DNA of 64,000 bases. Origin: an uncultured Chthonomonadaceae bacterium. GTDB taxonomy: Bacteria > Armatimonadota > Chthonomonadetes > Chthonomonadales > Chthonomonadaceae. Shown one piece after another: positions 23,526 to 62,178 of the stretch; position 1 is the first letter of the stretch; each line of letters begins with the position of its first letter. The stretch covers positions 512,001-576,000 of the forward strand of contig CAWFQB010000001.1 in the NCBI GenBank assembly GCA_963817895.1. The letters run 5' to 3'. A model generated the notes under the pieces. That model was not told the origin of the DNA. It did not search any database and saw nothing but the letters and a program-made list of their open reading frames with translations. Made by a program: the position numbers and the translations under genes.

Positions 23526-24575
23526 ATGATGAACCGCAAACGCGCGCCTGTGCCAGAAGTTCTCAAAAGCCTCCGCAAACGCCTGAACCATCGTGATGAA
23601 ACCATACGCGAACAGGCGTTTCAGGAGGCGCTTGCCCTGCCGCCCGAAATGCTGCTGCGATTGATGCAATGGGATGCGGGACGGGCGCGCGTTTACGGGC
23701 GGATACATCATGCTCTGGGCGGTTCCTGCTGTCTGTGGGTTTTGATTTGCCTTGTAACCGCTATCGGGCAATTTGTCTATAAGACAGCCTTTCTGCTGCG
23801 GGACGCGCTGCTGTTTTTGTGGATGCCGCTCTCCTTTGTCGCGATGGGGAGAATACAGGCTCGCACCCGCTTGTGCGGTGTGTTGAGTCGCGTCATTATG
23901 GCCCGCGATGAGGCGCGTTTTGTATTTCCGGCTCTGATGTTTTACCACTATGTGGAAACAGATATGTACACGGACATTCGCCAGACCCTGCTGCGCCTCA
24001 TGCCGCTTTTAACGCCTGCGGATGTGGAGGAATGGACGAGTGAGTGTACAGCGGCTTCCCGGCAGCGCATGTTCTGGCGTTCGCGCGGTTTTGACCTGTG
24101 GCACGATCTGGAGATGCTGGATTGCGCGCTGGAAACGCTGGCGCGCGTGGGAAGCGCGGAAGACGTTGTCACTGTTCGCAGTGTCGCGCGTCTGACGCCG
24201 GAGCAGATTGCCCGCAAAATACGCCCGCATGCGCTTGCCGATGACCGCAAAGAGGTATATCGCGCCATTCGCAATTCTACAATCCTAAACCCCAAACAGC
24301 ACGGCAGAATTGACCCGGAAAATAACGCGGTGATGCAGGACGAGCGTTACCGCCAATGGTGTTTGAGTCGGGCGCGGGAGATATACGCGCTGGCGAATTG
24401 CAGTCTCGCCGCATTGTTGGAGCGGGGCGAACAGCAGCAACGGGCGGCGGGATTGTTACGCGCTTCTCAGGCGACAGACACAGAGGCCGCGAAGATTCTA
24501 TTACGCCCGCAAATCGAACACGAATCCCAAACACCGCCTGAACAACTGCTGCGCGCGAATACATCAAAACTCTAA
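23526..24575 (+). CDS. Hypothetical 2-TM protein, triple-LLR C-terminal family
   Basis: TM hairpin; ALETLARVG; tail GLLRAS...ILLRP...TPPEQLLRA. Confidence 0.75.
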   Translation: MMNRKRAPVPEVLKSLRKRLNHRDETIREQAFQEALALPPEMLLRLMQWDAGRARVYGRIHHALGGSCCLWVLICLVTAIGQFVYKTAFLLRDALLFLWMPLSFVAMGRIQARTRLCGVLSRVIMARDEARFVFPALMFYHYVETDMYTDIRQTLLRLMPLLTPADVEEWTSECTAASRQRMFWRSRGFDLWHDLEMLDCALETLARVGSAEDVVTVRSVARLTPEQIARKIRPHALADDRKEVYRAIRNSTILNPKQHGRIDPENNAVMQDERYRQWCLSRAREIYALANCSLAALLERGEQQQRAAGLLRASQATDTEAAKILLRPQIEHESQTPPEQLLRANTSKL

Positions 24576-24621
24576 CAACCTAACAACCTAACAACTTAAC
24601 AACCTGAAACGGAGGCTTGAC

Positions 24622-25903
24622 ATGGCGCAGGACAGACGGCAATTTCTTATCAATTCGGCTCTGGCGGGAGCGGCTGCGGCATTGCTTGATACGCCTGCAA
24701 ACGCGAAGCGGCATTCACAGGCGGATAAACTCAACGTCGCGGTTGTGGGCGTGGCGAACCGGGGCGGGGATAATTTGAACGGCGTGAGCAGCCTGAGCAG
24801 CGTCAATATCGTGGCCCTGTGCGACGTGGATGACAACTATCTTCATGCCGCCGGGTCGCGCTTTCCCAACGCCAAAACCTACAACGATTACCGCAAGATG
24901 CTCGAACAGAAAGACATTGACGCGGTTGTCGTCAGCACGCCCGATCACATGCACGGGCCGATTACCCTTGCCGCAATGGAAGCGGGACACGATGTATATT
25001 GCGAAAAGCCCCTTGCACATACGGTTGCCGAGTGCCGCAAAGTGACCGATACCGCCCGCAAATTGAAGCGGGTTACGCAGATGGGGACGCAGATACACGC
25101 GACGGCTAATTATCGCCGCGTGGTGGAGAAGATACAGGCGGGCGCAATTGGAACTGTGACGGAGGCGCACTCGTGGTCGGACAAAGTTTGGACGGGTGTT
25201 TCGCCCCTGCCTGAAAGCAGGCCGCAGCCCCCGACCCTGCACTGGGATTTATGGCTCGGCAAGTCCGCGCCGCGCCCGTACAATGAGGCGTATGTGCCGG
25301 CCAAATGGCGCGGCTGGTGGCAATGGGGCGGAGGAACCCTTGCGGACATGGCCTGTCACCATTTAGACCTGCCGTTCTGGGCGCTGAATCTGGACTATCC
25401 GCGCACTATCAGAAGCAACCGGCCCGCCCGTCAGCCCGGACATTACTCCGGCATGGCTGATTGTACACTATGCGTTTCCCGCCCGCGATCAACGCGCGCC
25501 CGTCGAATTAAACTGGTATTGCGGCGGCAAGCGCCCGCCCCAATTTGAGCAGGCAGGCGTTCTGCCCAGATGGGGCGACGGAACGCTGTTTGTGGGCAAC
25601 AAGGGGATGCTGCTGGCCGATTACGACCGTCATGTACTGCTGCCGGAAAAGGATTTCGCCGGTTACGCCGCGCCCCCGCTCTCCATTCCCGACAGCATCG
25701 GACATCATGCCGAATGGGTGGAAGCCTGCAAGCATCGGGGAACCACAACCTGCCGTTTCGAGTACAGCGGACTGCTTGCGGAAACCGTCGCGCTCGGCAA
25801 TGTCGCGTACCGCATGGGCCAAAAACTGGAATGGAACGCCCGCGCCCTGAAAGTCACGAACTGCCGCGAAGCCGATGCGCTGTTACATCCGTCCAAAGTA
25901 TAG
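24622..25903 (+). CDS. Tat-exported Gfo/Idh/MocA oxidoreductase (frameshift near 25420)
   Basis: DRRQFL Tat motif; VGVANRG, STPDHMH, YCEKP, DMACH; removing one C restores the frame into 25592-25903. Confidence 0.85.
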
Positions 25904-25981
25904 GAGCGGCCAACATCAGGCCGAATACCTGAACACCAAACACCTGAATATCGGCTTTTTCTACCGGGGAGGAGGCGAACA

Positions 25982-26917
25982 ATGCGCGTTCAGCACACCC
26001 ATGAGCGGGAACCGGAGCAGGAATCAGGTTTGGAAAGTATTCGCGCCCGCCTGCAAAATGACCGTCAGGAGGTGGACAGCGAAGCGGCTGCAAGCCTGGA
26101 GTCTTCTGATGCAGAGCAACTGCTGCGGACGGGACAGGCGGAAGCGCGACATTGGCGGCGTGTTGAAGTCGCTACCAATTGGACAATGGCGCTGTGCTGG
26201 CTTGTGGGTCTGAGTCTGTTGATCTTTCGTCCGCTCACGCATGCCCTATCGCGCCAGTTTGATGAGATTGTGGGATATGGAGTGATCGTTCTCGGCGGCT
26301 ACATTGTGCAACGCTATCGCAGGCAAATGTCAGTGTCGCGCCTGAAATTGGCGCAAAACTACAGCAATGTTCGTGACAAACGGCTGGTTCCCATGGGATT
26401 GCTGTTGCTGCGCGACCGCTCCGTGAACAATCCAATGCTCGTTGAGATGCTGGTTCGCTCCCTGCCGCTTTTGACCTATAACGAAGTTCAAATGTGGACC
26501 TACGAACAAAGGGCCGCGCTTCTATCTGTTCTGGAACTCCCCCTGCGCGACTACCGGCTGGCGCTGGCCGCGCTGAAAGCATTGGAACAGGTAGGGGATG
26601 AAAGCGCGTTGCCTGTGGCGCAGAAACTGGCGGACATGCAGCGCGAATTGCCTCTTTTACGCGAAGATGTCTTGAAGTTGTTCCGTCCAAACCTCAATAT
26701 GCTTGCGATGGAGGTCAAACAAGAGGCAAAGCAGTGCCTGCCTTATCTGACTGGCCGAGCGAATGAGCAGCGGCTGGCGCGAACTTTGCTGCGTGGCTCA
26801 ACGGCGACCATTATACCGAGCGCGGATATTCTGCTGCGCCCGGCAACGGGAGAAGCGGACACCCTGCCCTCAGAGCAACTGTTGAGGCCGGTGGAGGAAG
26901 AAGAGAGTAGTATATAG
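25982..26917 (+). CDS. Hypothetical 2-TM protein, triple-LLR C-terminal family
   Basis: GGAGG RBS; TM hairpin; ALKALEQVGDESALPV; tail TLLRGS...ILLRPA...PSEQLLRP. Confidence 0.8.
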   Translation: MRVQHTHEREPEQESGLESIRARLQNDRQEVDSEAAASLESSDAEQLLRTGQAEARHWRRVEVATNWTMALCWLVGLSLLIFRPLTHALSRQFDEIVGYGVIVLGGYIVQRYRRQMSVSRLKLAQNYSNVRDKRLVPMGLLLLRDRSVNNPMLVEMLVRSLPLLTYNEVQMWTYEQRAALLSVLELPLRDYRLALAALKALEQVGDESALPVAQKLADMQRELPLLREDVLKLFRPNLNMLAMEVKQEAKQCLPYLTGRANEQRLARTLLRGSTATIIPSADILLRPATGEADTLPSEQLLRPVEEEESSI

Positions 26918-26995
26918 CTTTTTCGTTGCTTTGATTGGCGCGCAGGGCAAGGTGTAACAGGTATCGCTTCCATCCTCCATCTCGCATCCATTATT

Positions 26996-27698
26996 TTACC
27001 CTGTGCGGATGTCGCGCAGGTATTTTGCATGGCCGTCGAGGAACAGGCGATTGCGCCCGCCGGTGTGGACGGCATCGCCTTTTAATTCATTTGGCACGGT
27101 GGGAATAGTGCGGGGGAAATAGGGGTCAACGGCCATTTCCACATCGGCGGGGCCGTCGGGAATGCCCGCCTGCGGGTTGTTGGCCTGCCGCAAATCAGCG
27201 ACGGCCTGCAATTCCATTTTGCCCCAGAACTCATCCAGGGGCGTGGGAACGTCCGGGCGGTCGAAGCGCCAGAGCCAGTAGCGCGTGATGGCTGCGTTGG
27301 GAGTGGCGTCCACCGCCTGTGCCACCTGTGGGGCGTCGCGCATCATGCTTCCCGCCACGCTTGGACAGTTCCAGATGGCCTGATTACGAGTATACGGCTG
27401 CAAGACAAGCGCGGCCCATGCCCCGCGCGGATCGGATGTCGGCCAGGTAGTCCAGGGCTTATAGCCGCCTGGAAAAGCCGTCTTTAGATCGCGGCGGTCG
27501 GGCATCAATTCGTCATAATCCTGCACATACATAGCAAACGCGGTTCCAATCTGCCGCAGATTGGACAGACACGCGGCCTGCCGCGCTTTTTCCCGCGCCT
27601 GCGCAAAGACCGGAAACAGAATCGCCGCGAGAATCGCAATAATCGCGATCACGACGAGCAATTCGATCAGGGTGAAGGCGGTGTTGGGTGTTGGGCAT
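26996..27698 (-). CDS. Prepilin-type N-terminal cleavage / DUF1559 H-X9-DG protein
   Basis: [34 protein letters not shown]...[15 protein letters not shown]. The likely ATG (27698) is out of frame, implying a small indel near 27680. Confidence 0.88.
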
Positions 27699-27746
27699 TT
27701 AGACCCTGTGAACTCCTTTCGCCTGAGAGCATGAAAATAGGTGACT

Positions 27747-27795
27747 CCCCTTCTCCCAAGCTTTTTTGGGAGAAGGGGCCGAGGGTTGAGGGCTA
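27747..27795. repeat. CCCCT(T)CTCCC...GGGAGA(A)GGGG palindromic element (copies near 35436, 55550, 57503)
   Basis: Four similar hairpins, several followed by GGGTTGAGGGC. Confidence 0.75.
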
Positions 27796-27992
27796 TTTCA
27801 AAAACAGAATTTGGATTGTTGGCTGGCATGGTTTTGTGACTTGCTTGTAAACGTGTTTGTCTCTTGTTGGTTTTACCTGCGTGGCGCGTACAGAGTTCCC
27901 GAAACTTTTAAGGACGCGCCCTGCAACGTTCCCGCGATAAAATTCATAAAGTTTGTCGCGTGTATTTGCGGCTAAATTCAGGAGTGTACAGT

Positions 27993-28997
27993 ATGAGTGA
28001 CGAACCATTATTGGAACCGCGCCGGTCGAAAGCGACGTTCTGGACACGCTTGCAGGAAAAGTCGCTGCCGGAAGCGGCCTGGCTCAACGAGCAAAAACAA
28101 CTGGCGGGAATGGAACCGGCACAACGCCGGGCATGGCTGAAGCGGCTGCGCCATGGCAACAAGTTTATTCGTCAGGAGACGTTGCGCAGTTTTCACGGAT
28201 TATCGCCTGCCGTCCGGCGTCTGCTGACAGCGCAAGCCTATCAGCAGGCGCTTATGCAGCAGGTGACGCTGGCAATACCGGGCAGTTTTACAAGCATTGT
28301 CCTTCTTGTTGTTGGCGCGGTCAGCGGATGGCAATGGTTAGCGCTCAACAGCCTGTTCACAATGGTAATATGGTTCGTATTGGCAGCATATCTCCTGCCC
28401 AATCGTCAGCGGGCGCTGGCGAAAAACCTTCTGGATCAGACGTGGGACGCGCGCCTGCTTCCCTACCTGCTTATCCGACAGTATCAGAATCGCGCTAACA
28501 ATCGCTCGGAATTGAAGATATTCGGCGGGCGCAACATTCGCAATGCGCTGGTTCGGCTGCTGCCGCTGGCGCAGGAGAGCGATGTGGCGGAATGGACGGG
28601 AACGCATTGGAACTATATGCTGTACTATCTGTGGAATCCGCATGACGACGTGGAGATCACCCTTCTGACGCTGAACTTCGTCGCGCGATACGGCAATGAG
28701 CAGGCGTTGCGCGCGGTGGAGGCGATGACCAAAAAGCAAATTAATCTGGAACACGCGACCACGATAGGAGCCGCGCGAACCGCGCTGGAAGCCAATCGCG
28801 AGGTGATACAGGCTGCGGCAGAAGCCTGCCTGCCGCCCCTGCGGGCCTCGGTCGCGCTGCAAAAGCAGGCGCAAACCCTGCTGCGTCCATCAGGCGAAAC
28901 GCCCGCAATGGGACAAGATATTTTACTCCGTCCCGCGTCCGCTTACATGACGGACACGCCCGCCGAACAACTGCTGCGCCCCGGAAGCGCGGAGTAG
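27993..28997 (+). CDS. Hypothetical 2-TM protein, triple-LLR C-terminal family
   Basis: AGGAG RBS; TM hairpin; AAEACLPPL; tail TLLRPS...ILLRPA...TPAEQLLRP. Confidence 0.8.
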   Translation: MSDEPLLEPRRSKATFWTRLQEKSLPEAAWLNEQKQLAGMEPAQRRAWLKRLRHGNKFIRQETLRSFHGLSPAVRRLLTAQAYQQALMQQVTLAIPGSFTSIVLLVVGAVSGWQWLALNSLFTMVIWFVLAAYLLPNRQRALAKNLLDQTWDARLLPYLLIRQYQNRANNRSELKIFGGRNIRNALVRLLPLAQESDVAEWTGTHWNYMLYYLWNPHDDVEITLLTLNFVARYGNEQALRAVEAMTKKQINLEHATTIGAARTALEANREVIQAAAEACLPPLRASVALQKQAQTLLRPSGETPAMGQDILLRPASAYMTDTPAEQLLRPGSAE

Positions 28998-29053
28998 CGA
29001 GAAACAGGGCGCAACCCTGAACAAATCTATAACAATCTATAAGGTATCCGTTC

Positions 29054-29752
29054 GTGGAAACATTCTCAACTCTGGACGTGTCGCAGCCATTGGTGGAACA
29101 ACTGCCACCCCTGCCCCGCGAATTCTATTTGCAGGACACGCTGCTTGTCGCGAAACGTTTGCTCAATTGCCTGCTGGTACATGATGGCGCGGATGGCCTG
29201 ACAGTGGGGCGCATCTCGGAAACGGAAGCGTATACCCACAATGACCCCGCCTGCCATGCCTTTACGCGCAAAACCACCCGCAACGCGGCTATGTTCGGCC
29301 CGCCCGGACATGCGTACCTGCATCTGAATTATGGCCTGCACTGGTGCTTTAACGCCGTGACCGCGCCGGAAGATGTTGCCGAGGCCACGCTTGTCCGCGC
29401 TCTGGAACCTCTGGTCGGTGTGGAACTTATGCGGCGGAGGCGTGGTCTAGTGGAAGAGGAAGCGTTGCGCGACGGGACAGACGCAGCAATTATTGCCAGA
29501 CAAACTGTGAAGACAGGAAACTTTTTGTGCGGCGGTCCGGGCAAATTGGCGGTGGCAATGGGCATTACATCGCCGCTCAACACACTTGATTTAACTTTGG
29601 GACGAACGCTCTGGATCGCGCCCCCCACCGCGCAAACCGAGTACGCGGAACCGGACGCTATAGTGGAAACAACGCGCATCGGCATCACCAAAGCCGCCGA
29701 TTATCCCTGGCGCTTTTATCTGCGCAGTGAACCCTACCTTTCAAGAAGATGA
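29054..29752 (+). CDS. mpg: DNA-3-methyladenine glycosylase (MPG/AAG family)
   Basis: GRISETEAY, MFGPPGHAY...YGLHWCFN, GPGKL, TRIGITKA...PWRF. Confidence 0.93.
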   Translation: METFSTLDVSQPLVEQLPPLPREFYLQDTLLVAKRLLNCLLVHDGADGLTVGRISETEAYTHNDPACHAFTRKTTRNAAMFGPPGHAYLHLNYGLHWCFNAVTAPEDVAEATLVRALEPLVGVELMRRRRGLVEEEALRDGTDAAIIARQTVKTGNFLCGGPGKLAVAMGITSPLNTLDLTLGRTLWIAPPTAQTEYAEPDAIVETTRIGITKAADYPWRFYLRSEPYLSRR

Positions 29753-29772
29753 GCCTTTTAAGAAAACAACCC

Positions 29773-29990
29773 TTGTTGAAGAGATAACATCTGTCAGCGA
29801 CCCCATGCGTAAACGCAGGGGCTTGTCCCTAATCTCAGGCCGTAGCCGTTGACTGGAACAATAGGCCCGCCGACAGAGAGGCCCGTGCTGCCAGATTTTG
29901 CGCGGCATTAACGTCCGCGTTGGTCTGGTAGCCACATTGGAGGCAACAAAAACTCTCCTGCGACTTGCGGTTGGCGCGTTCGCAGTGCTG
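29773..29990 (-). ncRNA. Predicted TnpB omega (re)RNA: scaffold over the tnpB 3' end and right end, guide from the flank
   Basis: Inferred from known TnpB architecture. Guide would start just after TGAC (AGATGTTATCTCTTCAACAA); 5' boundary is a guess. Confidence 0.5.
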
Positions 29991-31088
29991 GCATTGCGAA
30001 CAGGTCTGCGAACTGTAACGCGGGTCTACTTCAATCACGGTGACGCCCGCGCGTTTCGCTTTGTAGTGCAGGAAGGTTTTGAGTTGCAGAAATGCCCAGT
30101 TGTGGAGTTTGGTACGAAACGCCCGATGCAAGCCGTTGCCTCGATTGCGGATGCCTGTAAGCAGTTCCACCGCGAGTGCCTTCTTTCGGAGAAGCGCGTT
30201 TTGTACCAGTTCTTTGCTGATGCGGTGGTTCTCGTTGCGGACGAAGCGGCTTTCTTTGCGTCGCGTCTTTTGCAGATGTTTGCGCGCCGAGCGGGTCTTG
30301 CGGGGTTGTAGTAGTTGGCGCAGACGGCGGTACTTGCGCCGCGCACGCTGGACGGGTTCGCCCGTGTAGCGGTGGCCTTCACTGTCGGTCGCCACGTTGA
30401 CCAGCCCTAAATCCACGCCAATCACGCCCTCTGGCTTGAAAGGTTCGGCTTCGGGTACATCTAGGGGGCAGGACAGATAGAACACGCCGTCGCGCAATAG
30501 AAGATCGGATTGCCCCCGCTTACCTTGCAGGAGTGCCTTCTGTTCCTTTGAGCATAGGAACGGGATTTTGAGCCGTCCCTGCGTCGTGGCAATGTTGCAG
30601 ACCTGCGCTTCCACATCCCAATCCAGCAGGCGGGCGTCGAGTTCAACCGCTCCGAGTGGCGCGAAGGCGCGCAGAGTGCGAGTGTCGCGTTTGTAAGCGT
30701 CGGCGACTTTGGCAAGGGCGCGGATAACATGATTCGCGTGGAGTTTCGTGACCGCTTTGACGCTATGGTAGCAGAGCGTCTGCAAAGGAAACTTGCGAAA
30801 CGTGCCCGTTTCAAACGCCAATCTACTGATGCAGTTGCAGGCCGCATTGCACACGCGCATGGTTTGCGCCAGTGCAGCGTGTTGTTGCGAGTTGGTATGC
30901 AGTTTGACGACCGTACAAAGTTGCATAAATTATTGTACCGGAAAGACCAATCGAAAACAATCGTTTGGAACCCAATAGAAAGGCAGGAACGCGGAAGTTT
31001 TTCGATTGGATAGCCTTTTGCTGAGACAAAAGTTTCCCAACAGGAAAGCCATTCCTCCGCATTGCTAAAGCAAGCGGCTTCCTGAATT
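29793..31088 (-). mobile_element. IS200/IS605-family tnpB-only (IS1341-like) element
   Basis: Minus-strand left end GGAAGCCGCTTGCTTTAGCAATGCGGAGGAAT; right end CAAGCCCCTGCGTTTACGCATGGGGTCGCTGAC; no tnpA. Confidence 0.8.
29835..30926 (-). CDS. tnpB: RNA-guided endonuclease TnpB
   Basis: RuvC residues in GVDLG, AVE and NADVNAA; CSQC...CLQC zinc finger; VDPRYSSQTC. Confidence 0.92.
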   Translation of the reverse strand: MQLCTVVKLHTNSQQHAALAQTMRVCNAACNCISRLAFETGTFRKFPLQTLCYHSVKAVTKLHANHVIRALAKVADAYKRDTRTLRAFAPLGAVELDARLLDWDVEAQVCNIATTQGRLKIPFLCSKEQKALLQGKRGQSDLLLRDGVFYLSCPLDVPEAEPFKPEGVIGVDLGLVNVATDSEGHRYTGEPVQRARRKYRRLRQLLQPRKTRSARKHLQKTRRKESRFVRNENHRISKELVQNALLRKKALAVELLTGIRNRGNGLHRAFRTKLHNWAFLQLKTFLHYKAKRAGVTVIEVDPRYSSQTCSQCQHCERANRKSQESFCCLQCGYQTNADVNAAQNLAARASLSAGLLFQSTATA

Positions 31089-31095
31089 TAATTCG

Positions 31096-31959: not shown

Positions 31960-31971
31960 TTCACCACCCGC

Positions 31972-32203: not shown

Positions 32204-32332
32204 AGCGTGTGGTCTTTTTTCGATACAGAGAAGACGATTTTGAAAAATCAGGCAGGAGGCGCGGCAGGAAAAGCCGAACTGTCAGGGTGACGAGACTGGC
32301 TCGTAACCATCACACAGGAGGACATTCCCGCA

Positions 32333-49860: not shown

Positions 49861-49864
49861 TGCA

Positions 49865-53037: not shown

Positions 53038-53054
53038 TTTCATGGAGGCAAACC

Positions 53055-53597
53055 ATGCGACGCCAGCCCAATGTAAAAAGGCGCGTTGTGACCAAGAAAG
53101 CTTACGCGAGAAAGTTAGGCGCGAAAACCACAATAGCTTTGACGGGCGTTTTCATTTTTGCATGCGGTATCATCGGTGTTATCCTGAGTCTTCTGGTTGC
53201 CTGCGTTGCGCTGACTCACCTTAGCGCGGAAACCCTGCTGATGCTGACCATATTCCTTGGACTTGGCGCCGGTTCCGTGTATCTGCTCTACATCGGCAGG
53301 CGCACGGTGAAGGAAGCTGGAGAGATAAATACGGGTATTCCGCTCACGCGCGCCAATATCGGAGATTTGCCGGTACGAGAAAGCCTTGTTCGCGCTTCCA
53401 GCGAACCGGTTCAGGAGCAGCAGGATGTGCTGTTACGCGCCGCGACAAATACGGATAAAACGCCAGCGGAACAGTTGGTACGCGCCTATCAGGAGCCTGT
53501 TCAGGAGGAGCAAACGGCGTTTATTCCAACGGCTCAACCCGTTCTGACGGCTACTGCGGTTGCCGAAGCAGAACTTGTCCAACAAAGGGCAAGGTAA
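53055..53597 (+). CDS. Hypothetical 2-TM protein, triple-LLR C-terminal family (short member)
   Basis: GGAGG RBS; TM hairpin; SLVRAS...VLLRAA...TPAEQLVRA. Confidence 0.78.
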   Translation: MRRQPNVKRRVVTKKAYARKLGAKTTIALTGVFIFACGIIGVILSLLVACVALTHLSAETLLMLTIFLGLGAGSVYLLYIGRRTVKEAGEINTGIPLTRANIGDLPVRESLVRASSEPVQEQQDVLLRAATNTDKTPAEQLVRAYQEPVQEEQTAFIPTAQPVLTATAVAEAELVQQRAR

Positions 53598-53683
53598 TAC
53601 CGTTCCAATAAAACTCCGTAGGGACACAACATGTTGTGTCCGCAATTGGTAACAGTTCGTGCCTGCAAGGGCAAGGTGGGGCT

Positions 53684-54019: not shown

Positions 54020-54073
54020 AAAGAAGACGGAATATGGAATACGGGAATATAGGAAGCCTGATAACCTGATAAC

Positions 54074-54688
54074 CTAATGACCTAACTCCGGTACATGGGG
54101 ATCATCGGGGGAGGCGGAACCGATGTTGCAGAGTTGATGCAGCGCTTCCGCGAACAGTTCGTAAAGCGACTCGAGCTGGTTTACGTCTGTAACCACGCCG
54201 GGAGTTTGAAAGTACAGTTCATCCACGCCCTGCGGAAATCGCGCGCCGAACCAGCCCTCATCATCTTTCACTTCCAGATACACGGATGGCTGGCCCGCAA
54301 TCAGTTCGCGCAGGCGCGTGTCGGCAAACAGGGCGCGTACCTTCGCTTCTTCCGTGCCTTTGATGATGTACTGCGCGTCAAAGGCCGGGTTACCAATCTC
54401 CACATCCTGCATACCCAAAAACTTCCCCACTCCGCTGAATACCGTATGGGTATAGATACAGAACCGAAATCCGCGTGGATTGACAAAAGGCGCGCGAATA
54501 CGGGTATACGTGACTGTTGCCCTGCCGACAGGTTCCCGGCGCGTATCCAGCGTCACAGTCCAGCCGTCCACATGCGCCTCGATGTAGTCTTCATGCAGCA
54601 AATCCCCGGTCACGAATTTTGCGCCGAGTTTGTCGGAAAGCTGCTTCCATACATCCGCTTTGCTGTTCTTAAATCCCTGCCTCCACAT
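54074..54688 (-). CDS. Hypothetical protein (DUF3137-like)
   Basis: YTRIRAPF, GMQDVEIGNPAFD; last gene of the operon. Confidence 0.65.
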   Translation of the reverse strand: MWRQGFKNSKADVWKQLSDKLGAKFVTGDLLHEDYIEAHVDGWTVTLDTRREPVGRATVTYTRIRAPFVNPRGFRFCIYTHTVFSGVGKFLGMQDVEIGNPAFDAQYIIKGTEEAKVRALFADTRLRELIAGQPSVYLEVKDDEGWFGARFPQGVDELYFQTPGVVTDVNQLESLYELFAEALHQLCNIGSASPDDPHVPELGH

Positions 54689-54728
54689 AACGCTCTCTTT
54701 CGGGCATACAGAAAATCAATTGCTGCTT

Positions 54729-55523
54729 TCAGGCGGTTGTCAGGCCGTTTGGATTCGTTGCCGCGTATTTGGAGGGCGGCACGTCCAGGCTGAAAAATTC
54801 CAATACATCGTCAAGCCGGTGCGACTCGTCGGTGCAAAGCTGCGTTTCGCGGAACTGCCGTTGCTGCGCGTTCGCGACCGCCTGACGGATTTTATCAATC
54901 TCGGCTTCCAGTTCGGCGATTTTCTGCGTGGACAGGGTTGTATACTCCTGCGTTGTCTGCGTCAGGTGTTCCGTATAGGCGGCAAGCGCGGCCAGTTTGC
55001 GCGAAGCGTCCGCCACAATGCTTTCGGGGGACGCGCCAATCGCTTTGCCCATCGCGTTGACGGACACCTGCATCATCTGGCGTTTGGTTTGCAGCGGCAA
55101 TTCGGCGGGGAGTTCGCCGAACATGTCCAGAACCTGCTCTGCCGAAAACGGGGCGGCAGGCAGATTCGCCGCCTGATAAATGCTCTTGAAATCCAGTGTG
55201 CCGCTGAGATGCGCGTCCGGGTGAACAGCATGGGACGTGACCTGAATTTGGTCTAAATTCGGCCCATGCTCGTCACGAACGATTTGCTCGACGGTTTTGG
55301 AAGATGCGGGCGCGGCGAACGGCACGGCGGTTTGCGCGGTTTGTGTCGCCTGTGTCGCCTGCCCGGTTTGCGGCTTTTGCGAGGCTTTCTCCAACTCCGC
55401 CCACATCTGATCGGTCATGCCGCCGCCCGCGCCGCTTCCCGCATGAGACGCCGTTTCTTCCTGATCCGGCGGCAGTTCCACCAACAGTCCCGCCGCTTTG
55501 CGTAACGTATTGCGAAGGCTCAT
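54729..55523 (-). CDS. Hypothetical coiled-coil protein
   Basis: N-terminal amphipathic LRKAAGLLVEL; LPLQTKRQ; long C-terminal coiled coil. Confidence 0.72.
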   Translation of the reverse strand: MSLRNTLRKAAGLLVELPPDQEETASHAGSGAGGGMTDQMWAELEKASQKPQTGQATQATQTAQTAVPFAAPASSKTVEQIVRDEHGPNLDQIQVTSHAVHPDAHLSGTLDFKSIYQAANLPAAPFSAEQVLDMFGELPAELPLQTKRQMMQVSVNAMGKAIGASPESIVADASRKLAALAAYTEHLTQTTQEYTTLSTQKIAELEAEIDKIRQAVANAQQRQFRETQLCTDESHRLDDVLEFFSLDVPPSKYAATNPNGLTTA

Positions 55524-55632
55524 AGCAAATAGATCCTTTTATAATGGCTCTCACCCCAACCCCTCTCCCAGGCTTTTTTGGGAGAGGGGCTATTTCTCGC
55601 TTCTAACAACTAGAAGGGGCGGGGGTTGAGGG

Positions 55633-56586
55633 CTATGACGCGAAACGCGCCATCATCTGTTCTACCGAGGCCAGTTCCTGTAGCGAGGAGGCCATGGTGT
55701 CGGTCGCTACCACCACTTCTTCCACATCCGCCAGAATCTGCTCGGGCGAACGGGCGCGGATTTCATCGTTAATCAGCCCGAAGGTATCCTCAACGAGTTG
55801 AAGCTGATGATTGAGATTGACCAGTATTCTGCCGATTTTGCCGACGAACTCATCCCGCCGCTGTAAAATGTCCATGCGCTTTTGCAGAATGGAACGAGTC
55901 GCCTCATCCGTTTCGGCTTCGAGGGATTGGCGCAGTTTTTCGGCTTCCTGACGATAGTGCGCCTGTATTTCTCCCACCACCCGCTGCGTCCACTCGTCCG
56001 GGGACGCGGCGGCGTAGGAGTTGGAAACGGATTTGCGTTTGGCGTTCTGCCCGTCTCGCGCTTCGTCACGGGAATGGGCGCGGGAAGCGTTGCGGTCGCG
56101 CTCAAAGTTCCAATTCGGCTCGTAGGCAGGGACGGCGTTGGCGTGAAGCTCGTTTTGAAGCTGTTCCAGATACGCGCGAAACTGAACTTCCTTACCCGCA
56201 AACAGCAGGAACTTATCCAGCAGGTAATCCAGCTTGCGCAGCACTTCCCGAAACCACGCTTTATCTTCCGCCGATTGCGCGTCAATCTGCGCGCGCGTCG
56301 CTTCCAGATGCGCGAACCGCTCCTGCATATCCGGGCGCAATAGAGTCAGCGTTTGCGCCTTCATCTGCTGCCGCTGCTCCTCGATTTCCGCGTCATAACG
56401 CTGTGACAGCCGCGCCTGATACCACGCGGAATCCGGCACAAACAGCAGATACGCGGCCTCGGCGACAATGGCGGCCAACAGCGGCAGGGGGTTGAGCAGG
56501 GCAGCCGACAACGCCACGGCTCCGGCAAGGCCGACCGCATTGTAGCTCTCCTTCATCGCTTCGACGATACGGTTATGTTTAGGCAT
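55633..56586 (-). CDS. Hypothetical membrane-anchored coiled-coil protein
   Basis: N-terminal TM hairpin followed by long helices. Confidence 0.72.
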   Translation of the reverse strand: MPKHNRIVEAMKESYNAVGLAGAVALSAALLNPLPLLAAIVAEAAYLLFVPDSAWYQARLSQRYDAEIEEQRQQMKAQTLTLLRPDMQERFAHLEATRAQIDAQSAEDKAWFREVLRKLDYLLDKFLLFAGKEVQFRAYLEQLQNELHANAVPAYEPNWNFERDRNASRAHSRDEARDGQNAKRKSVSNSYAAASPDEWTQRVVGEIQAHYRQEAEKLRQSLEAETDEATRSILQKRMDILQRRDEFVGKIGRILVNLNHQLQLVEDTFGLINDEIRARSPEQILADVEEVVVATDTMASSLQELASVEQMMARFAS

Positions 56587-56681
56587 GGGAGTTGAGATAC
56601 GAGATACGAGATACGAGATACAGGCACAGAGTCAGTTGAACCACTGGCATTTACTCGTATCTCCTATCTTGTATCTCGTAT

Positions 56682-57500
56682 CTACAAATTGACAAACACC
56701 GTTCGGATTTCGCGCAGCAGTTCTAAGAATTCTGGCGAGTTGGGGCCGTCGTCGCGCCAGGCTACGCCGCGCTCCACGCAGTTGTATACGGCTTGTATAC
56801 GCGCGCCGGGGATGATTTGTCCCTGCGCGTCGCGGTCGCGGCCTAACAGCCACACGGTATCCACGACCGACAGCGCGGCGGCAATATCATGGGTGACGAT
56901 TACAAACGTTTTGAGTTCATCGGTTTGCGCCATATCGCGTATCAGGGCGCAGACGCTCTCCTGCGCCACCAAATCCAGCCCGGAAAACGGCTCGTCCATC
57001 AGCAGCAGATGTTCGCTGCACATAAACTGCTGCGCGATGGCAACGCGCTGCCGCTGCCCGCCCGAAAGCTGAACCGGGTACTTGTTGGCCTGCGCTTCCA
57101 GCCCAAAGCGGGTAAGCAGGGATTGGGCAAGGGCTGTCGCCTGAGCCTGCGGCAGATGCCCCAATTTACCCGCCACGCGCAGGTTCGCCAGTACCGTCCG
57201 ATGTTCAAACAGGGGATAATTTTGCGCGACAACGCCCACCATGCCCCGATGCACCGGCTGGTTTTCGATCACGATAGAGCCGCTGTCCGGCGCTTCCAGC
57301 CCCGCCAGCAGCCGAAACAGGGTTGTTTTGCCCACGCCCGACGGCCCAAGCAGTCCGATGACCTGCCCCTGCGTGTAGCCTTTGCGCAGAATGTCTTTCA
57401 CTTCCAGATCAACATCGCGCAGAATCTGTTCCTGTCCCAGACGTTTGTTGACGCCGGTGACTTTGAGAATTGTTTCTCCATAATCGTATGCTGCGACCAT
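56682..57500 (-). CDS. ABC transporter ATP-binding protein (NitT/TauT-like)
   Basis: GPSGVGKT, LSGGQRQR, LMDEPFSG, VTHD. Confidence 0.93.
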   Translation of the reverse strand: MVAAYDYGETILKVTGVNKRLGQEQILRDVDLEVKDILRKGYTQGQVIGLLGPSGVGKTTLFRLLAGLEAPDSGSIVIENQPVHRGMVGVVAQNYPLFEHRTVLANLRVAGKLGHLPQAQATALAQSLLTRFGLEAQANKYPVQLSGGQRQRVAIAQQFMCSEHLLLMDEPFSGLDLVAQESVCALIRDMAQTDELKTFVIVTHDIAAALSVVDTVWLLGRDRDAQGQIIPGARIQAVYNCVERGVAWRDDGPNSPEFLELLREIRTVFVNL

Positions 57501-57606
57501 ACCTTACCCCAACCCCTCTCCTGACCGCGCTACGCGCTAGGAGAGGGGCTATTTTAGGTTGCCCCTTCCTGCCGTTGTTAATTGCGCCAGAAGTAGAGCT
57601 ATATGT

Positions 57607-58548
57607 TTACTTACGTTCCAGTGTCAGGTCGGCGTAGGGGCAGACGAGTCTTCGCGCCGCGCCGATGGCGTAGTCTTGCAGCAGGCCGACAATCAGAATT
57701 ACGATCTGAATGGCGAACACTTCGGCAAGCAGAAAATGCTTGCTCTGGTTGAGCAGCATGGCTCCGACGCCGCCCTCCGAACGCGAAATGCCCTCCACCA
57801 TCGTCAGCATCATCCAGCCAATCGCCGCGTTCTGGCGCAGCACTTCAAACGCCTTTTCCGCCGTGCCTAAAATCACCACTTCCCAGACCACCTGCCACTC
57901 GCTCATGCGCAGGGTTCGGGCGTAATCGAAATTGCTTTTGGGAATCGCCGCGATGACAGCGGCCATCGAAGTGACATAGAACACGGTTACGGCAAATACG
58001 AGTAGGGACGTTTTCAGCGCGTCGCCGCCGGGAAAGATCAGCATGAACACAAACGTAAACCCGGTCAGGCTCAGAAACCGCCCCTTCGAAACGGCTGCGG
58101 CAAGCGGGCGAAAAACCGGTATCACGGTCAGATACGCCAGTCCGAGCGACAGAACGGAAGACCACGCGAGGGCGCGAACGTTGAGCAGGAAACTTGTCCA
58201 CAGTTCCGGCCCCAATCCCTGCGTAAACCACAGCGAACGCAACGCGGTCAGCACCTCGCCGGGAAGGGGAAGCACCTTGAATGGCGAACGTATCCAGATC
58301 AGGAGCGCAATCGCCGCTTCAACAAGAACAATCAGCCGCATGGTCCCACGCGATACGGCGCGGTTGGGCAGGAAGATATCCATCCATCTGCCCGCAGCGT
58401 GGGGTTTTCGCTCCTGCCCCGGCAGAAGGTCCCCCACTTTCAGCGCGGCGTTTCCATGCGCCCCCGCCACAAGGACGTTACCGGCTGTCGCGTCGGTCGC
58501 CTGTTCCATCGGAGAAATTTCAGGTTCTATCTTGGATGTTTGGTTCAT
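57607..58548 (-). CDS. ABC transporter permease (NitT/TauT-like)
   Basis: DYARTLRMSEW loop, AIGWMMLTMVE, GGVG; about 6 TM helices. Confidence 0.88.
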   Translation of the reverse strand: MNQTSKIEPEISPMEQATDATAGNVLVAGAHGNAALKVGDLLPGQERKPHAAGRWMDIFLPNRAVSRGTMRLIVLVEAAIALLIWIRSPFKVLPLPGEVLTALRSLWFTQGLGPELWTSFLLNVRALAWSSVLSLGLAYLTVIPVFRPLAAAVSKGRFLSLTGFTFVFMLIFPGGDALKTSLLVFAVTVFYVTSMAAVIAAIPKSNFDYARTLRMSEWQVVWEVVILGTAEKAFEVLRQNAAIGWMMLTMVEGISRSEGGVGAMLLNQSKHFLLAEVFAIQIVILIVGLLQDYAIGAARRLVCPYADLTLERK

Positions 58549-58581
58549 GGATGGTTGCTGTAAATAGAGACGATATTGGTT

Positions 58582-60384
58582 CTAACTGCCGGCTCCCATA
58601 ATGATTTCCACGCGGCGATTCTGGGCGCGGCCCTGCGGCGTGGCGTTTTCCGATACGGGGTTTTCCGAACCGTGCGCGAAGACCCGAATACGTCCCGACG
58701 GGAAGTTGACCGGGTATTCCTGTTCCAATCGCTTCTTTACGGCAAAAGCGCGGGATTCGGACAGCGCCATGTTCGCCGAAGGCGATCCCTGATTGTCGGT
58801 ATGGCCGTGAATTTCAACCACTGTGCCACTGGCAACCAGCGCATCGCGGCCCAATTGTTCCACCATGCGCTTGGAGTCGGCGGCAAGTGTCGCTTTGCCG
58901 GTATCGAAGTGGATGTTCCAGGCGCGGCGGCTGACCGGAATTTTAACGACACCGGGATTCGGGTATTTCGGTTTTGAGCGGTCAATTGTCGCCATTGTTG
59001 GCGCGGCCTTTTTCACAATATCCTGAAGGTAGGACGTATCCAGAACCTGATTGATGGGCTGATAACTGGGCAATAACTGCGGGTACTGCGCGACGACTAT
59101 ATCGCCGAACACGCGGTAAGTGGCCTCGTACAGGTTTGCCGAACCGCTGACCATTCCGAAGGTGAGCAGCATTTCGGCCAGGTTGCTCGCGCTCGACCCG
59201 CCGAGATCAACCTGCTGCCCGGTTTTATCCGGCTCGGTCACGCCCCGGTAGTAACGCGCCCAGTACGGCGCGTCCGATTCGTGGTAGACAACCGCGCTGA
59301 CGGCTGCGGCTTTTTGCAGGGCGTCGGGATTGGCGCGTACCGCGTCGCCGCCCTCGGCAATCGCCTGTAGCATCCCCTCTACCGTGCCGCGATTCGCCTT
59401 CATCCACTTGTCAATGCCGATGATGATGCACGGCATCTGCGAACTATATTCTTTCGTAGACACGATGGAAACCAGACCGCCCTTTTTTTCGGCCACGTTC
59501 ACGTCGCCCGGTGTCCACGTTACAACTCCATTTACGACGACGTGTTTGGTTTCTCCCGTTCGCTTGCCGTTGTGTACGACCGGGCGATCTTCAGCGTAGC
59601 CCGCAATGTATTTCTGCGCGGCGTCCAGATAGTCTGAAGCGTTCACCCAGTTCATTGCGTCGGGATCATAGGTTTTCTCGTCGGGATTGGTGCGCAGGCC
59701 GTTGTCGCCAAGCCACTTTTGCGCGATGTTCCAGTCGCCGTCGCGCAGGACGCCCGCCACAAACCCGCCCCGGCTGGAGGGGGGATTGGCTTTCCAGACC
59801 GCCGGCCCCATGAACTTGTCTTCGCCATGCGAATAACCGCACGAACCGACCACTTTGGCCTGATAATCCGGCCCGATACGGCGCAGGGTATCATTGAGCG
59901 GCTTCAAAAACGCCGCGCTGCCATCGCCCATGATGGTGACGAAGTGCGCGCCCGTTTGCGGGTTAGCGTTGCCCCGACTCAACTCGGTGGCAAACGCCGT
60001 CAGCGCTTCCTGCAATTTGCCGTTGTCGTCCTGTCGGCTGAATTTGAGGTTGACGCCGTGTTTCGCCATCAGGCTGCCCTGTGTCGCCTGCGGCCCGCCA
60101 TTCGCGAAAAGCAGACCCATCTGCGCGTTCCAGGCATAGCCCTGAAAGCGCACTTCGGGCTTGTCGGGAACACCGGGCGCATCGCCGGGAATCGCCACAG
60201 CGCCGCCCCCGCCGCTATTCGTCGGCTTGGTCGGGTCTATTGGCGGCAGGGGCGCTGGAATTGGTACAACAGGAATTTGTGGTGCCGCGGGTGGGGCAAG
60301 CTTGTTCCAGAACCGCCACAATCCAAACGCCAAACCGACAGCCAGTATCAAAACAACAATTTTTCCGGTCGGCTTCAGCTTCAT
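58582..60384 (-). CDS. Membrane-anchored substrate-binding domain + OmpA-like peptidoglycan-binding domain
   Basis: N-terminal TM and Pro linker; NMT1-like binding region; C-terminal IHFDTG...HGHTDN...LSESRA...NRRVEI. Confidence 0.88.
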   Translation of the reverse strand: MKLKPTGKIVVLILAVGLAFGLWRFWNKLAPPAAPQIPVVPIPAPLPPIDPTKPTNSGGGGAVAIPGDAPGVPDKPEVRFQGYAWNAQMGLLFANGGPQATQGSLMAKHGVNLKFSRQDDNGKLQEALTAFATELSRGNANPQTGAHFVTIMGDGSAAFLKPLNDTLRRIGPDYQAKVVGSCGYSHGEDKFMGPAVWKANPPSSRGGFVAGVLRDGDWNIAQKWLGDNGLRTNPDEKTYDPDAMNWVNASDYLDAAQKYIAGYAEDRPVVHNGKRTGETKHVVVNGVVTWTPGDVNVAEKKGGLVSIVSTKEYSSQMPCIIIGIDKWMKANRGTVEGMLQAIAEGGDAVRANPDALQKAAAVSAVVYHESDAPYWARYYRGVTEPDKTGQQVDLGGSSASNLAEMLLTFGMVSGSANLYEATYRVFGDIVVAQYPQLLPSYQPINQVLDTSYLQDIVKKAAPTMATIDRSKPKYPNPGVVKIPVSRRAWNIHFDTGKATLAADSKRMVEQLGRDALVASGTVVEIHGHTDNQGSPSANMALSESRAFAVKKRLEQEYPVNFPSGRIRVFAHGSENPVSENATPQGRAQNRRVEIIMGAGS

Positions 60385-60848
60385 CGTTTCAGTCTCCTTC
60401 GGGCGATACTATCATTGTAATCGCCGCAACATCGCATCATTGCTTCAGACTGCATTCTGTCGCGAAGAGCAGGCGCAAAGGAACTACTCTGCGCCTGCTG
60501 GCATTGCAAGCCTGTTGATGCAATATTGGACGAAATGCCTCATTAAAGCGTTTCAAAATGGGGACATACTTAACAAAAACAATCCTCTGCCAGCGTTAGT
60601 TCACAACGGCGCATTTGCGTATGCTGCTATCCAATACGGAGGACGGGCGAACAGTCTGATGGCCTACTATATCAGTATGACATATTTTGATAGTTCAGGG
60701 AAAATGATATTATGTGACAGCAAAGTGGGTATAAAAGGCGGCGAAAGTCGTATACTCTGGCATGACACGCGGGCATAGTCCGTTATTCGCCAACGTTTTT
60801 CAACGGCTTCCTGACGCTGCGTGTCGCGCAACATCAAAGGAGATAATT

Positions 60849-61271
60849 ATGAGACGATTCCAGACGATTCTCGCGCTGTCCGTACTGATGGCGTCCCTTC
60901 CCATGTTCGGGAGCGCGCAAAAGGGGTATCGGCCCTTCAACGGACACAAAGACAAGGCGTATCTATCCAGCTACAACCGGGCCAAAGCCAGCGTACATAA
61001 GCGGTTTACAGCGGAACAGCGAACGCGCATTGCCGGGGAACTGACAAAGTCCGAGAGCCGCGCCGCAGACGCCGCGAAACATCAGGTTCCGGTGACGTCG
61101 AAGATAGGCACGGCAGCCGCCAACAAACAGCAGGATCGGCAGAGCCACCTGAGCATGCGCCTGAGCCGACAATATCAGGCTCAGGTACGCGCCCGCTACC
61201 ACCTGACCCCCGATGAAGCGGTCGTCATCAATCGCGAGGCCATAGATAAAGGCGTCAGGACAGGCCAGTAG
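60849..61271 (+). CDS. Hypothetical exported protein
   Basis: AAGGAG RBS; signal peptide; basic mature region. Confidence 0.65.
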   Translation: MRRFQTILALSVLMASLPMFGSAQKGYRPFNGHKDKAYLSSYNRAKASVHKRFTAEQRTRIAGELTKSESRAADAAKHQVPVTSKIGTAAANKQQDRQSHLSMRLSRQYQAQVRARYHLTPDEAVVINREAIDKGVRTGQ

Positions 61272-62178
61272 ACGCCGGCAGCGCGTTGTCATTCGCTGCT
61301 TCCATGCTGACGCTGCGCGCCGGCTGTTCGGTTTCGAGATTGGGATGAGAACTTCCGGCAGGTCGCAATAGAGTTCGCGCAGGGGCCGCATCCGGCATGG
61401 TTGCCCGCAGAGAGGTTCGGGCGGTTACGGCCTGTTTCGTGCGGGCCTCTATTGCCAGCAGGCAGGCGTTGGCGGCGTGTTCAATGCGCGGCGCATCGGC
61501 CATCCAGACGGGACACGATAGCAGGCGGCGGACGACCCGACGGGAACGGGGAACGCCGACCTGCTCAAACGCGGCTAAAATCGCCAGTATCAGGTTTGCG
61601 TTCGTGCCGCGCAAAACTCGACATAACGCCCTGTGCTGCGCCCGCGAAAGCAAATTTTTGTCCCTCAAATGCGGCAGTGTTTCCACAAGAATCACCTGCG
61701 CGAGACAGGAGGCATCGCGGTCCCCGTAGCGCATGACATCCACGAAAACGTTTACGCGCTCCACAGGCGGAGCCTCCTGCAATAAAAACAGCAGGTTCCG
61801 TATCCGCCGTTGCTTTACGCTGTGCGCCAGACAGTGGCGCGTTAATAGCCGCGTCATCAGCAGGAACAGCGCAAAGAACAGCAGACCAATCCCATTCTGA
61901 ACAGGCCAGCCGAGGAGTAAACGGCCATGCGCGAGTATCAACAACGCGAGGGTCGTTATCAACAGCCATGCCCGCCGCCTGTGGCTTTCCCGAAAGCCCT
62001 GAATGTCGAGTACCAGCAACCCCGTCAGGAATTCGGCGGCAGGCAACCCTTTCGTATCCAGAATTGCCAGCGCGCGCCACAATCTGCGCCGGCTGTCGCT
62101 TTCCAGACAGGCATAAAGTTCATAAGCCGTTTGTCGCGTGAAGCGAGACTCCGGTTCCTCCCTCGTCGCAGGTATCAT
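61255..62178 (-). CDS. Hypothetical 2-TM protein, triple-LLR family (degenerate tail)
   Basis: TM hairpin; ILAAFEQVG; AANACLLAI; TSLRA...TLLRPA...ETEQPAR. Confidence 0.7.
   Translation of the reverse strand: MIPATREEPESRFTRQTAYELYACLESDSRRRLWRALAILDTKGLPAAEFLTGLLVLDIQGFRESHRRRAWLLITTLALLILAHGRLLLGWPVQNGIGLLFFALFLLMTRLLTRHCLAHSVKQRRIRNLLFLLQEAPPVERVNVFVDVMRYGDRDASCLAQVILVETLPHLRDKNLLSRAQHRALCRVLRGTNANLILAILAAFEQVGVPRSRRVVRRLLSCPVWMADAPRIEHAANACLLAIEARTKQAVTARTSLRATMPDAAPARTLLRPAGSSHPNLETEQPARSVSMEAANDNALPASTGLS

What the first reader, a model, noticed from the sequence alone, without database searches (positions are those of the whole stretch)
23526..62178. Dispersed membrane-protein family sharing a C-terminal triple LLR[AP] motif: candidate undescribed docking or sorting system
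Seen: five separate genes (23526, 25982, 27993, 53055, 61255) with little similarity in their N-terminal halves all have a two-TM hairpin and end in the same pattern, roughly LLR[APG]S-x8-11-LLR[PA]-x7-9-P.EQLLR[AP]. The tails are GLLRAS..ILLRPQ..TPPEQLLRA; TLLRGS..ILLRPA..LPSEQLLRP; TLLRPS..ILLRPA..TPAEQLLRP; SLVRAS..VLLRAA..TPAEQLVRA; and the degenerate TSLRAT..TLLRPA..ETEQPAR. Four also have a HEAT-like block (ALEQVG-type) and an AxxCL helix before the tail; the 53055 gene has the tail without these, so the tail behaves as an independent module. The genes sit singly among unrelated genes. Inference: five in 64 kb suggests a large lineage-specific expansion. A conserved three-fold linear motif on variable bodies looks like a multivalent ligand for one shared partner (scaffold, protease, AAA+ adaptor or export machinery). 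I know of no named family for it.
Basis: partly seen in the sequence, partly recalled or inferred. Interest (0 to 1): 0.8.

Follow-up and report, generated by a model that had tools for sequence, protein, structure and literature searches.

The report
Triple-LLR docking tail of Chthonomonadales proteins
Dozens of otherwise different proteins in one little-studied group of bacteria end in the same flexible tail with three evenly spaced Leu-Leu-Arg motifs, which looks like an undescribed shared address tag for binding one common partner inside the cell that is still unidentified.

Summary
A ~40-residue tail with three LLR[AP] motifs (spaced 13-16, then mostly 15) ends about 85 genes of this genome (81 ORFs at E<=0.001, none in shuffles) and 3,098 protein clusters elsewhere. 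It occurs in 29 of 33 other Chthonomonadales genomes and 0 of 267 other Armatimonadota genomes, plus one record labelled Fimbriimonadia. No Pfam, NCBIfam, PHROGs or PDB match; no paper or earlier scan note found. The motif is constrained as protein (dN/dS about 0.07 against 0.29 for the bodies), is unstructured in two AlphaFold models, faces the cytoplasm, and sits on unrelated bodies: two-TM+HEAT, short two-TM, helix-turn-helix-like, soluble HEAT, Spo0M. The main body family exists without a tail in other Armatimonadota families, so the tail is an add-on. Best reading: a trivalent docking tag for one oligomeric partner (0.55). The partner is unknown: ClpX, the neighbouring MoxR and McsB were each not found in some tail-bearing genomes; ClpC remains open. 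Corrections: four of the five window genes are paralogues, the fifth tail is degenerate, many members are soluble or clustered. A cultured species carries the tail, so it is testable.

The parts
23526..24575 (+). Two-TM + HEAT-cap protein, 349 aa, with triple tail
   Evidence: (E 3e-10)
24453..24557 (+). Tail: LLRA 24453-24464, LLRP 24498-24509, LLRA 24546-24557
25982..26917 (+). Two-TM + HEAT-cap protein, 311 aa; AlphaFold: helical body, tail (residues 275-311) coil with pLDDT about 55
   Evidence: (E 1e-10)
26786..26890 (+). Tail: LLRG 26786-26797, LLRP 26831-26842, LLRP 26879-26890
27993..28997 (+). Two-TM + HEAT-cap protein, 334 aa, with triple tail
   Evidence: (E 2e-12)
28878..28982 (+). 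Tail: LLRP 28878-28889, LLRP 28923-28934, LLRP 28971-28982
   Evidence: for the first two; third counted back from the stop in the translation
53055..53597 (+). Short two-TM class protein, 180 aa, no HEAT cap; tail followed by 36 further residues
   Evidence: (E 4e-14)
53385..53486 (+). Tail: LVRA 53385-53396, LLRA 53430-53441, LVRA 53475-53486
61255..62178 (-). Two-TM + HEAT-cap protein, 307 aa, degenerate tail
   Evidence: (E 0.11)
61360..61413 (-). Degenerate tail: SLRA 61402-61413, LLRP 61360-61371; third motif missing

Best explanation
The tail is a portable, unstructured, cytoplasmic docking tag. Each [DEQ]-x-L-L-R-[AP] unit binds weakly in a pocket of one shared oligomeric partner. Three units at a fixed 14-15 residue pitch bridge three equivalent pockets and give tight binding by avidity. 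In an ancestor of Chthonomonadales the tag was appended to existing scaffold-type proteins (two-TM hairpins with a HEAT cap, short hairpins, soluble HEAT solenoids, a Spo0M-like protein), and the tagged genes then multiplied. The effect is to gather tens of different proteins, many anchored in the inner membrane, on one hub, which either localises them or controls their turnover. Shown: the motif, spacing, selection, modularity and range. Inferred from prediction: disorder and cytoplasmic side. Inferred by analogy only: binding, avidity and a single partner. The partner is unidentified.
For: R is present at all three motifs in the 74 of 81 tails that the pattern parsed, L nearly so, while synonymous codons vary freely; spacing is 13-16 then 14-18, with 15 in 55 of 74. 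Pooled dN/dS is 0.074 for motif codons against 0.28 for linkers and 0.29 for bodies over 15 orthologue pairs. Linkers are 75% A/P/E/Q/T/S. The tail has pLDDT about 55 and 52 in two AlphaFold models whose bodies mostly score above 85. K/R residues flank the TM hairpins (3.1 before, 2.9 after, 1.0 in the loop; 39 of 48), placing both ends inside. The same tail sits on unrelated bodies. The HEAT-cap body lacks the tail in all 6 genomes outside the order that I read. Motif number varies: 3 in 143, 4 in 3 and 2 in 4 of the 150 best library hits. Only 1 of 5,079 non-member proteins has even two motifs at this pitch.
Against: No partner is identified and no neighbouring gene is shared across subfamilies. 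AlphaFold disorder is a prediction; tight spacing could also reflect a small fold it misses. The best neighbourhood leads failed as obligatory partners (moxR, clpX, mcsB). Synonymous sites are near saturation, so the ratios are rough.
Confidence: 0.55

Rival explanations
1. Sub-case with a named partner: the tag binds the N-terminal domain of ClpC and tethers the proteins to ClpCP as substrates or membrane-anchored adaptors. The acidic residue and the Arg four places later would mimic phospho-arginine, or the LL would enter the hydrophobic groove.
For: Clp_N domains are in 47 of 47 genomes of the order. The ClpC N-domain is 84-99% identical across 15 aligned sequences and keeps the two glutamates that correspond to E32/E106. 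All characterised ClpC adaptors bind this domain (PMC12583610, passages). G000 has three stand-alone ClpC N-domain proteins. Clp_N count and tail count correlate across 34 genomes (rho 0.59; 0.58 within f1).
Against: ClpC is also in tail-negative genomes. G301 has 63 tails and only 2 Clp_N matches. The pockets have a second reason to be conserved, the resting state (PMC12583610, passages).
Confidence: 0.13
2. The tails bind each other or the HEAT caps of other members, so the family polymerises into a lattice or condensate on the inner membrane with no outside hub.
For: 52 of 55 HEAT-cap hits in G000 carry a tail, and two of the three exceptions are gene fragments. Structural neighbours of the cap are armadillo/HEAT solenoids, several solved with Arg-rich peptides, all at E>0.1. 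No catalytic body was found apart from one probable fused ORF.
Against: The cap exists without tails in other families and at least 20 tail proteins in G000 have no cap. AlphaFold with 83 sequences did not dock the tail on its own cap.
Confidence: 0.15
3. The three arginines are sites of a shared post-translational modification (for example Arg phosphorylation), and the tail is an enzyme recognition element rather than a stable docking tag.
For: Invariant Arg in a disordered setting. McsB-family kinase found in 19 of 20 f2 genomes.
Against: McsB was not found in G000 or in any of 25 other f1 genomes, where tails are abundant. Three copies at a fixed pitch are not needed for modification.
Confidence: 0.07
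4. The tail is a translocation or sorting signal, and the proteins are exported effectors or a diversified immunity set.
For: Shared C-terminal tag on diverse bodies, tandem arrays with fragments (C4:39-52 kb), bilobed hydrophobic hairpins.
Against: No TM segment or basic cluster in the tail, variable trailing sequence, internal tails, no sorting enzyme, secretion gene or toxin recurring next to members, GC close to the genome mean (0.578 vs 0.586). I did not survey the secretion systems of the order.
Confidence: 0.06
5. The tail is a DNA repeat inserted in frame at gene ends, or an artefact of composition.
For: Tails in the C4 array share 60-80% DNA identity.
Against: Synonymous variation at every motif codon, dN/dS 0.07, always in frame near the C-terminus, none in shuffles.
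Confidence: 0.01

Closest known systems
Rubisco-binding motif of the Chlamydomonas pyrenoid (Meyer et al. 2020, PMC7673724; abstract start and section headings seen)
   Same: One short motif shared by otherwise different soluble and membrane proteins, targeting them to one oligomeric partner. This is the closest working analogy.
   Different: Eukaryotic organelle, different motif, known partner. Here bacterial, three copies at a fixed pitch near the C-terminus, about 85 genes in one genome, partner unknown.
SspB XB peptide and the ClpX zinc-binding domain (PMC12373786, passages seen; the LRVV core is recalled)
   Same: Short Leu-Arg tether on a disordered tail that works regardless of position in the chain.
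   Different: Single motif on an adaptor. clpX was not found in 5 tail-bearing genomes of 96-100% completeness.
PEP-CTERM-type C-terminal sorting signals (recalled)
   Same: Lineage-specific C-terminal homology region on tens of unrelated proteins in one genome.
   Different: Those are motif + TM helix + basic cluster with a dedicated processing enzyme. This tail has no TM helix, is internally repeated, faces the cytoplasm and has no linked enzyme.
HEAT_2 / PBS-lyase HEAT repeat proteins (PF13646, PF03130)
   Same: Many bodies match HEAT_2, mostly below the curated cut-off. One member from Chthonomonas calidirosea (WP_016483032.1, P0151) is annotated 'HEAT repeat domain-containing protein'.
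   Different: The annotation covers the body only. The tail matches no model and many carriers have no HEAT repeat.

Membership tests
Any Pfam / NCBIfam / PHROGs family for the tail | Profile match over the tail | tested here: not met
   Pfam: 5 window proteins, 64 further G000 members and 120 of the 150 library hits, no match over the tail. NCBIfam: 5 window proteins and 83 aligned members, only weak body hits. PHROGs: 0 of 57 tails.
PEP-CTERM-type sorting signals | Signature motif followed by a TM helix and a basic cluster at the C-terminus | tested here: not met
   Tail and trailing residues are hydrophilic; 2-53 variable residues follow motif 3.
PEP-CTERM-type sorting signals | Co-distributed dedicated sorting enzyme | tested here: inconclusive
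   None recurs in 70 loci with 5 kb flanks or beside 73 G000 members; a genome-wide profile across genomes could not be run.
ClpX XB-type tether | ClpX present wherever the motif is kept | tested here: not met
   TIGR00382 not found in g15 (0/3), g16 (0/2) and G301; G172, G062, G099, G207 and G301 carry 2-63 tails. These are draft genomes, but two whole genera lack it.
ClpX XB-type tether | Direct binding to the zinc-binding domain | not testable with these tools
   Needs a binding assay.
ClpC adaptor / pArg degron | Binding to the ClpC N-terminal domain | not testable with these tools
   Needs a binding assay.
ClpC adaptor / pArg degron | McsB kinase in the same genomes (for a true pArg degron) | tested here: not met
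   PF00217 in 0 of 25 f1 genomes and not in G000; 19 of 20 f2.
Terminal degron (ssrA-like) or PDZ ligand | Conserved residues at the free C-terminus | tested here: not met
   Last residue spread over 18 amino acids, trailing length 2-53; internal tails in P0001, P0002 and P0101.
MoxR-vWA system component | Consistent linkage to and co-occurrence with the moxR-DUF58-BatA operon | tested here: not met
   Member directly 3' of moxR in 8 of 30 loci, one origin not excluded; that moxR not found at E<=1e-120 in tail-bearing G036, G154, G099, G215 and G294, and present in tail-negative G109, G254 and G163.
HEAT_2 repeat proteins (bodies) | PF13646 above the curated cut-off | tested here: inconclusive
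   Met in 11 of 64 G000 members, weaker in others; below cut-off in all five window genes.

The most novel reading that the evidence does not exclude
Chthonomonadales have their own cytoplasmic addressing system: a trivalent LLR tag recruits up to about 85 membrane-hairpin and HEAT-solenoid proteins to an unknown lineage-specific hub and builds a coat-like scaffold or condensate on the inner face of the membrane, a bacterial counterpart of motif-driven organelle assembly in eukaryotes.
Probability: 0.2. Interest if true: 0.92.

Novelty: new variant of a known kind. Interest (0 to 1): 0.7.

Why it matters
From my own knowledge, shared short docking motifs in bacteria usually serve a handful of proteins. 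Here one tag sits on about 1% of the called genes of a genome; the tagged set is larger than any other paralogue cluster I found in it (next 54 and 53), and the tag is under about four-fold stronger constraint than the proteins that carry it. That points to an unknown cellular hub in a barely studied phylum. One pull-down could identify it, because the cultured Chthonomonas calidirosea carries the tail (WP_016483032.1). A 40-residue avidity tag with its partner could also be a useful protein-recruitment tool. The HMM alone gives a handle on some 3,100 clusters of hypothetical proteins.

Tried and rejected
Complex prediction of ClpC N-domain (A6) with the tail (A2): score 0.00 twice, verdict 'no answer', controls not folded; it says nothing either way. 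RNA runs: none was listed. ESM Atlas: full protein gave a 0.94 hit to an unnamed Armatimonadota cluster; tail alone no usable hit. PDB sequence search with the tail profile: best E 0.16. Fold searches: no Foldseek hit at E<=0.001; VIA-align gave only generic helical hairpins and armadillo solenoids, Z<=9.8, so the 'helix-turn-helix-like' label of the third class rests on a weak HTH_17 hit (E 0.016) and the model's secondary structure. Phage collection: no match to cap+tail; IMG/VR was not scanned. MoxR as hub: rejected. dnaK-dnaJ-prmA link at C14:721 kb: not seen in the 8 related loci checked. ECF sigma / anti-sigma-like operon: holds for one two-unit orthologue in 7 of 70 loci but not in G000. 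ClpX: zinc domain alike in tail-positive and tail-negative genomes, gene not found in several carriers. Expansion after McsB loss: looked attractive, but G301 has McsB and 63 tails, and many McsB-less families have no tails. Search for a repeated 'receptor' domain in G000: nothing evident, though the self-BLAST reported almost no internal repeats and so was insensitive. Tail tree against body class: too few columns to resolve. Earlier scan notes: nothing on this family.
Full report
Observation. The five ORFs and their tails are as described. The window is G000:C1:512001-576000 of a 7.48 Mb, 81% complete assembly. A strict triple-motif pattern hits 64 of 83,583 six-frame ORFs, all with the motif ending within 60 residues of the stop. 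An iterated 39-position HMM converges on 81 ORFs at E<=0.001 and 84 at 0.01, with none at E<=0.1 in three shuffles or the reversed set. I worked with 88 ORFs at E<=0.35 after dropping one that I took as spurious and that later proved to be the frameshifted tail of a HEAT gene. A few ORFs are two frames of one gene, so the gene count is about 85. The assembly also splits clpC and clpB, so some 'fragments' may be sequencing indels. The fifth window gene (61255) has only two motifs and scores E=0.11. Four of the five window genes are paralogues in their bodies.

The motif. In the 74 of 81 tails parsed by the pattern, each unit reads roughly [DEQ]-x-L-[LV]-R-[APG]-[SA]; unit 3 is usually P-E-Q-L-L-R. 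Pitch is 13-16 residues from unit 1 to 2 and 14-18 from unit 2 to 3 (15 in 55 of 74). All six Leu codons and four to six Arg codons are used at the motif positions. Over 15 orthologue pairs, pooled dN/dS is 0.074 for 178 motif codons, 0.28 for linkers and 0.29 for bodies; synonymous sites are close to saturation, so these are rough. This shows constraint at the protein level and implies the genes are translated. Linkers are mostly A, P, E, Q, T and S; 2-53 unconserved residues follow unit 3. AlphaFold2 leaves the tail at pLDDT about 55 in the 25982 protein (83 sequences) and about 52 in a different class (14 sequences). Among the best 150 library hits, 143 have three units, 3 have four and 4 have two; the last unit is within 60 residues of the end in 148. 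Three of them carry an extra internal tail from gene fusion.

The bodies. With tails removed, the 88 ORFs fall into clusters of 53 (HEAT cap, mostly behind a two-TM hairpin), 17 (short two-TM), 3 (two-TM plus a small helix-turn-helix-like domain) and 15 singletons. Singletons include a Spo0M protein (E 9e-9), a weak DUF1499 match, long soluble HEAT solenoids and fragments. A simple hydropathy scan finds a two-TM hairpin in 48 of 80 ORFs of at least 130 aa, with positive charge on both flanks in 39 of 48, which puts the tail in the cytoplasm (prediction only). No catalytic domain was found except one alcohol-dehydrogenase-like ORF that is probably a frameshift fusion.

Range. The tail profile matches 17 of 17 other genomes of the family, 12 of 15 of a sister family, 0 of 1 of a third family in the order, and 0 of 267 genomes of other orders of the phylum (only 24 candidates per genome were scored; a deeper look at five negatives stayed empty). 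Named contigs with relatives are Chthonomonadaceae, Chthonomonadales, Chthonomonas, Chthonomonadia, Armatimonadota or unclassified 'bacterium' in all 70 loci. Copy number runs from 3-9 in small genomes to 39, 63 and 70 and tracks genome size (rho 0.75, capped counts, related genomes). The 1.84-billion library holds 3,098 clusters at E<=0.001. Of 120 listed database hits, six carry an organism name: five Chthonomonadales and one Fimbriimonadia MAG with a full member (MEP0766892.1). Other phyla were not searched genome by genome. The cultured Chthonomonas calidirosea has the tail on WP_016483032.1, annotated only as a HEAT repeat protein. Importantly, the two-TM + HEAT-cap body also matches 20 genomes outside the order; in the 6 I read, the proteins lack the tail and most end right after the last cap helix, with 12 copies in G026. 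The four tail-negative genomes of the order lack the body family as well. So the tail is a later, lineage-specific addition.

Surroundings. In the window the genes lie among unrelated genes: cytochrome c-LRR protein, oxidoreductase, prepilin-type DUF1559, methylpurine glycosylase, M28 peptidase. Genome-wide, 38 of 88 lie within 1 kb of another member and 63 of 73 called members follow a same-strand gene, against 74% for all genes. Three neighbourhood leads were tested. A member lies directly after a conserved moxR in 8 of 30 loci, G000 included and one of them broken, but one origin is not excluded and that moxR was not found in five tail-bearing genomes. A two-unit orthologue follows an ECF sigma and an anti-sigma-like gene in 7 of 70 loci, not in G000. 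The dnaK-dnaJ-prmA position is not conserved.

Mechanism. Fixed pitch, invariant side chains, disordered linkers, variable unit number and portability are the anatomy of a multivalent linear motif. The simplest working model is avidity binding to three equivalent pockets on one oligomeric cytoplasmic partner, which gathers the tagged proteins (0.55). Candidate partners were tested by presence and absence. clpX was not found in 8 of 47 genomes, including two whole genera and G301, five of which are known tail carriers. McsB was found in 0 of 25 f1 and 19 of 20 f2 genomes, so the Arg residues cannot be obligatory McsB sites, and the idea of expansion after McsB loss fails on G301. ClpC is universal in the order and its N-domain is nearly invariant; it stays a candidate (0.13) on analogy with known adaptors (PMC12583610, passages). 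Self-assembly with HEAT caps (0.15), a modification site (0.07) and an export signal (0.06) are less likely; a DNA repeat is excluded.

Comparison and novelty. No Pfam, NCBIfam, PHROGs or PDB sequence match covers the tail. Six literature searches found no description: 'Armatimonad/C-terminal/motif/LLR' (20 of 493 listed), 'Chthonomonas + HEAT repeat' (0), 'Chthonomonad/paralog/hypothetical proteins/expansion' (15 of 899 listed), 'Armatimonadota + McsB' (0), 'Chthonomonas calidirosea + proteome' (10) and 'Armatimonadetes/C-terminal sorting/paralogous domain' (2). I judged these from listings only, and the library lacks most subscription papers and I saw no supplements. Earlier scan notes hold nothing on it. 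It works most like the pyrenoid Rubisco-binding motif (PMC7673724, abstract start and headings) or the SspB XB tether (PMC12373786, passages), and resembles PEP-CTERM-type signals (recalled) only in being a lineage-specific C-terminal module. It is a member of none of these.

Verdict. A real, undescribed, strongly selected trivalent motif on about 85 proteins of this genome, nearly confined to Chthonomonadales. The kind of device is known; this motif, its scale and its unknown partner are not. Interest 0.7.

Noticed in passing
G172, G303, G062 (g15); G207, G099 (g16); G301: clpX was not found in two whole genera of the sister family and in G301, all 96-100% complete. Loss of clpX is unusual in free-living bacteria (own knowledge).
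   Followed up: partly
order-wide; phylum-wide: McsB-family arginine kinase is found next to clpC in 19 of 20 f2 genomes but in none of 26 f1 genomes, while the ClpC N-domain stays nearly invariant; it is patchy across the phylum (156 of 301).
   Followed up: partly
G000:C1:1255040-1256875 and C4:792505-793560 (L211, L213, L217): Three stand-alone ClpC N-domain proteins with unrelated C-terminal halves; one sits behind an ECF sigma and an anti-sigma-like gene.
   Followed up: no
L013 (G000:C4:39164-52743): Array of ten short-class tail ORFs and fragments interleaved with what look like exported ankyrin-repeat genes (recognised by eye), resembling a diversifying cassette region.
   Followed up: partly
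L209, L220-L228: The ClpX zinc-binding domain diverges from the Pfam-type consensus I recall in all 8 Armatimonadota sequences parsed, with or without tails.
   Followed up: partly
L078, L080:6482-6859 (-): A ClpS-like gene (recognised by eye, not scanned) faces the two-unit tail gene in two loci.
   Followed up: no
window 54074-60384 (-): Run of genes with three unassigned proteins, an ABC ATPase and an OmpA-domain protein; looks like one uncharacterised operon.
   Followed up: no
window 22563-23501 (+): Cytochrome c fused to leucine-rich repeats, directly upstream of the first tail gene.
   Followed up: no
window 29835-30926 (-): TnpB / Cas12f1-like IS605 protein.
   Followed up: no
window 24622-25903; G000:C14:6567-9163; C3:741699-744419: An oxidoreductase, clpC and clpB are split into adjacent ORFs, suggesting indel errors in this assembly.
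   Followed up: no
P0183 (MEP0766892.1): Full HEAT + two-TM + tail protein in a MAG labelled Fimbriimonadia, outside the order.
   Followed up: partly
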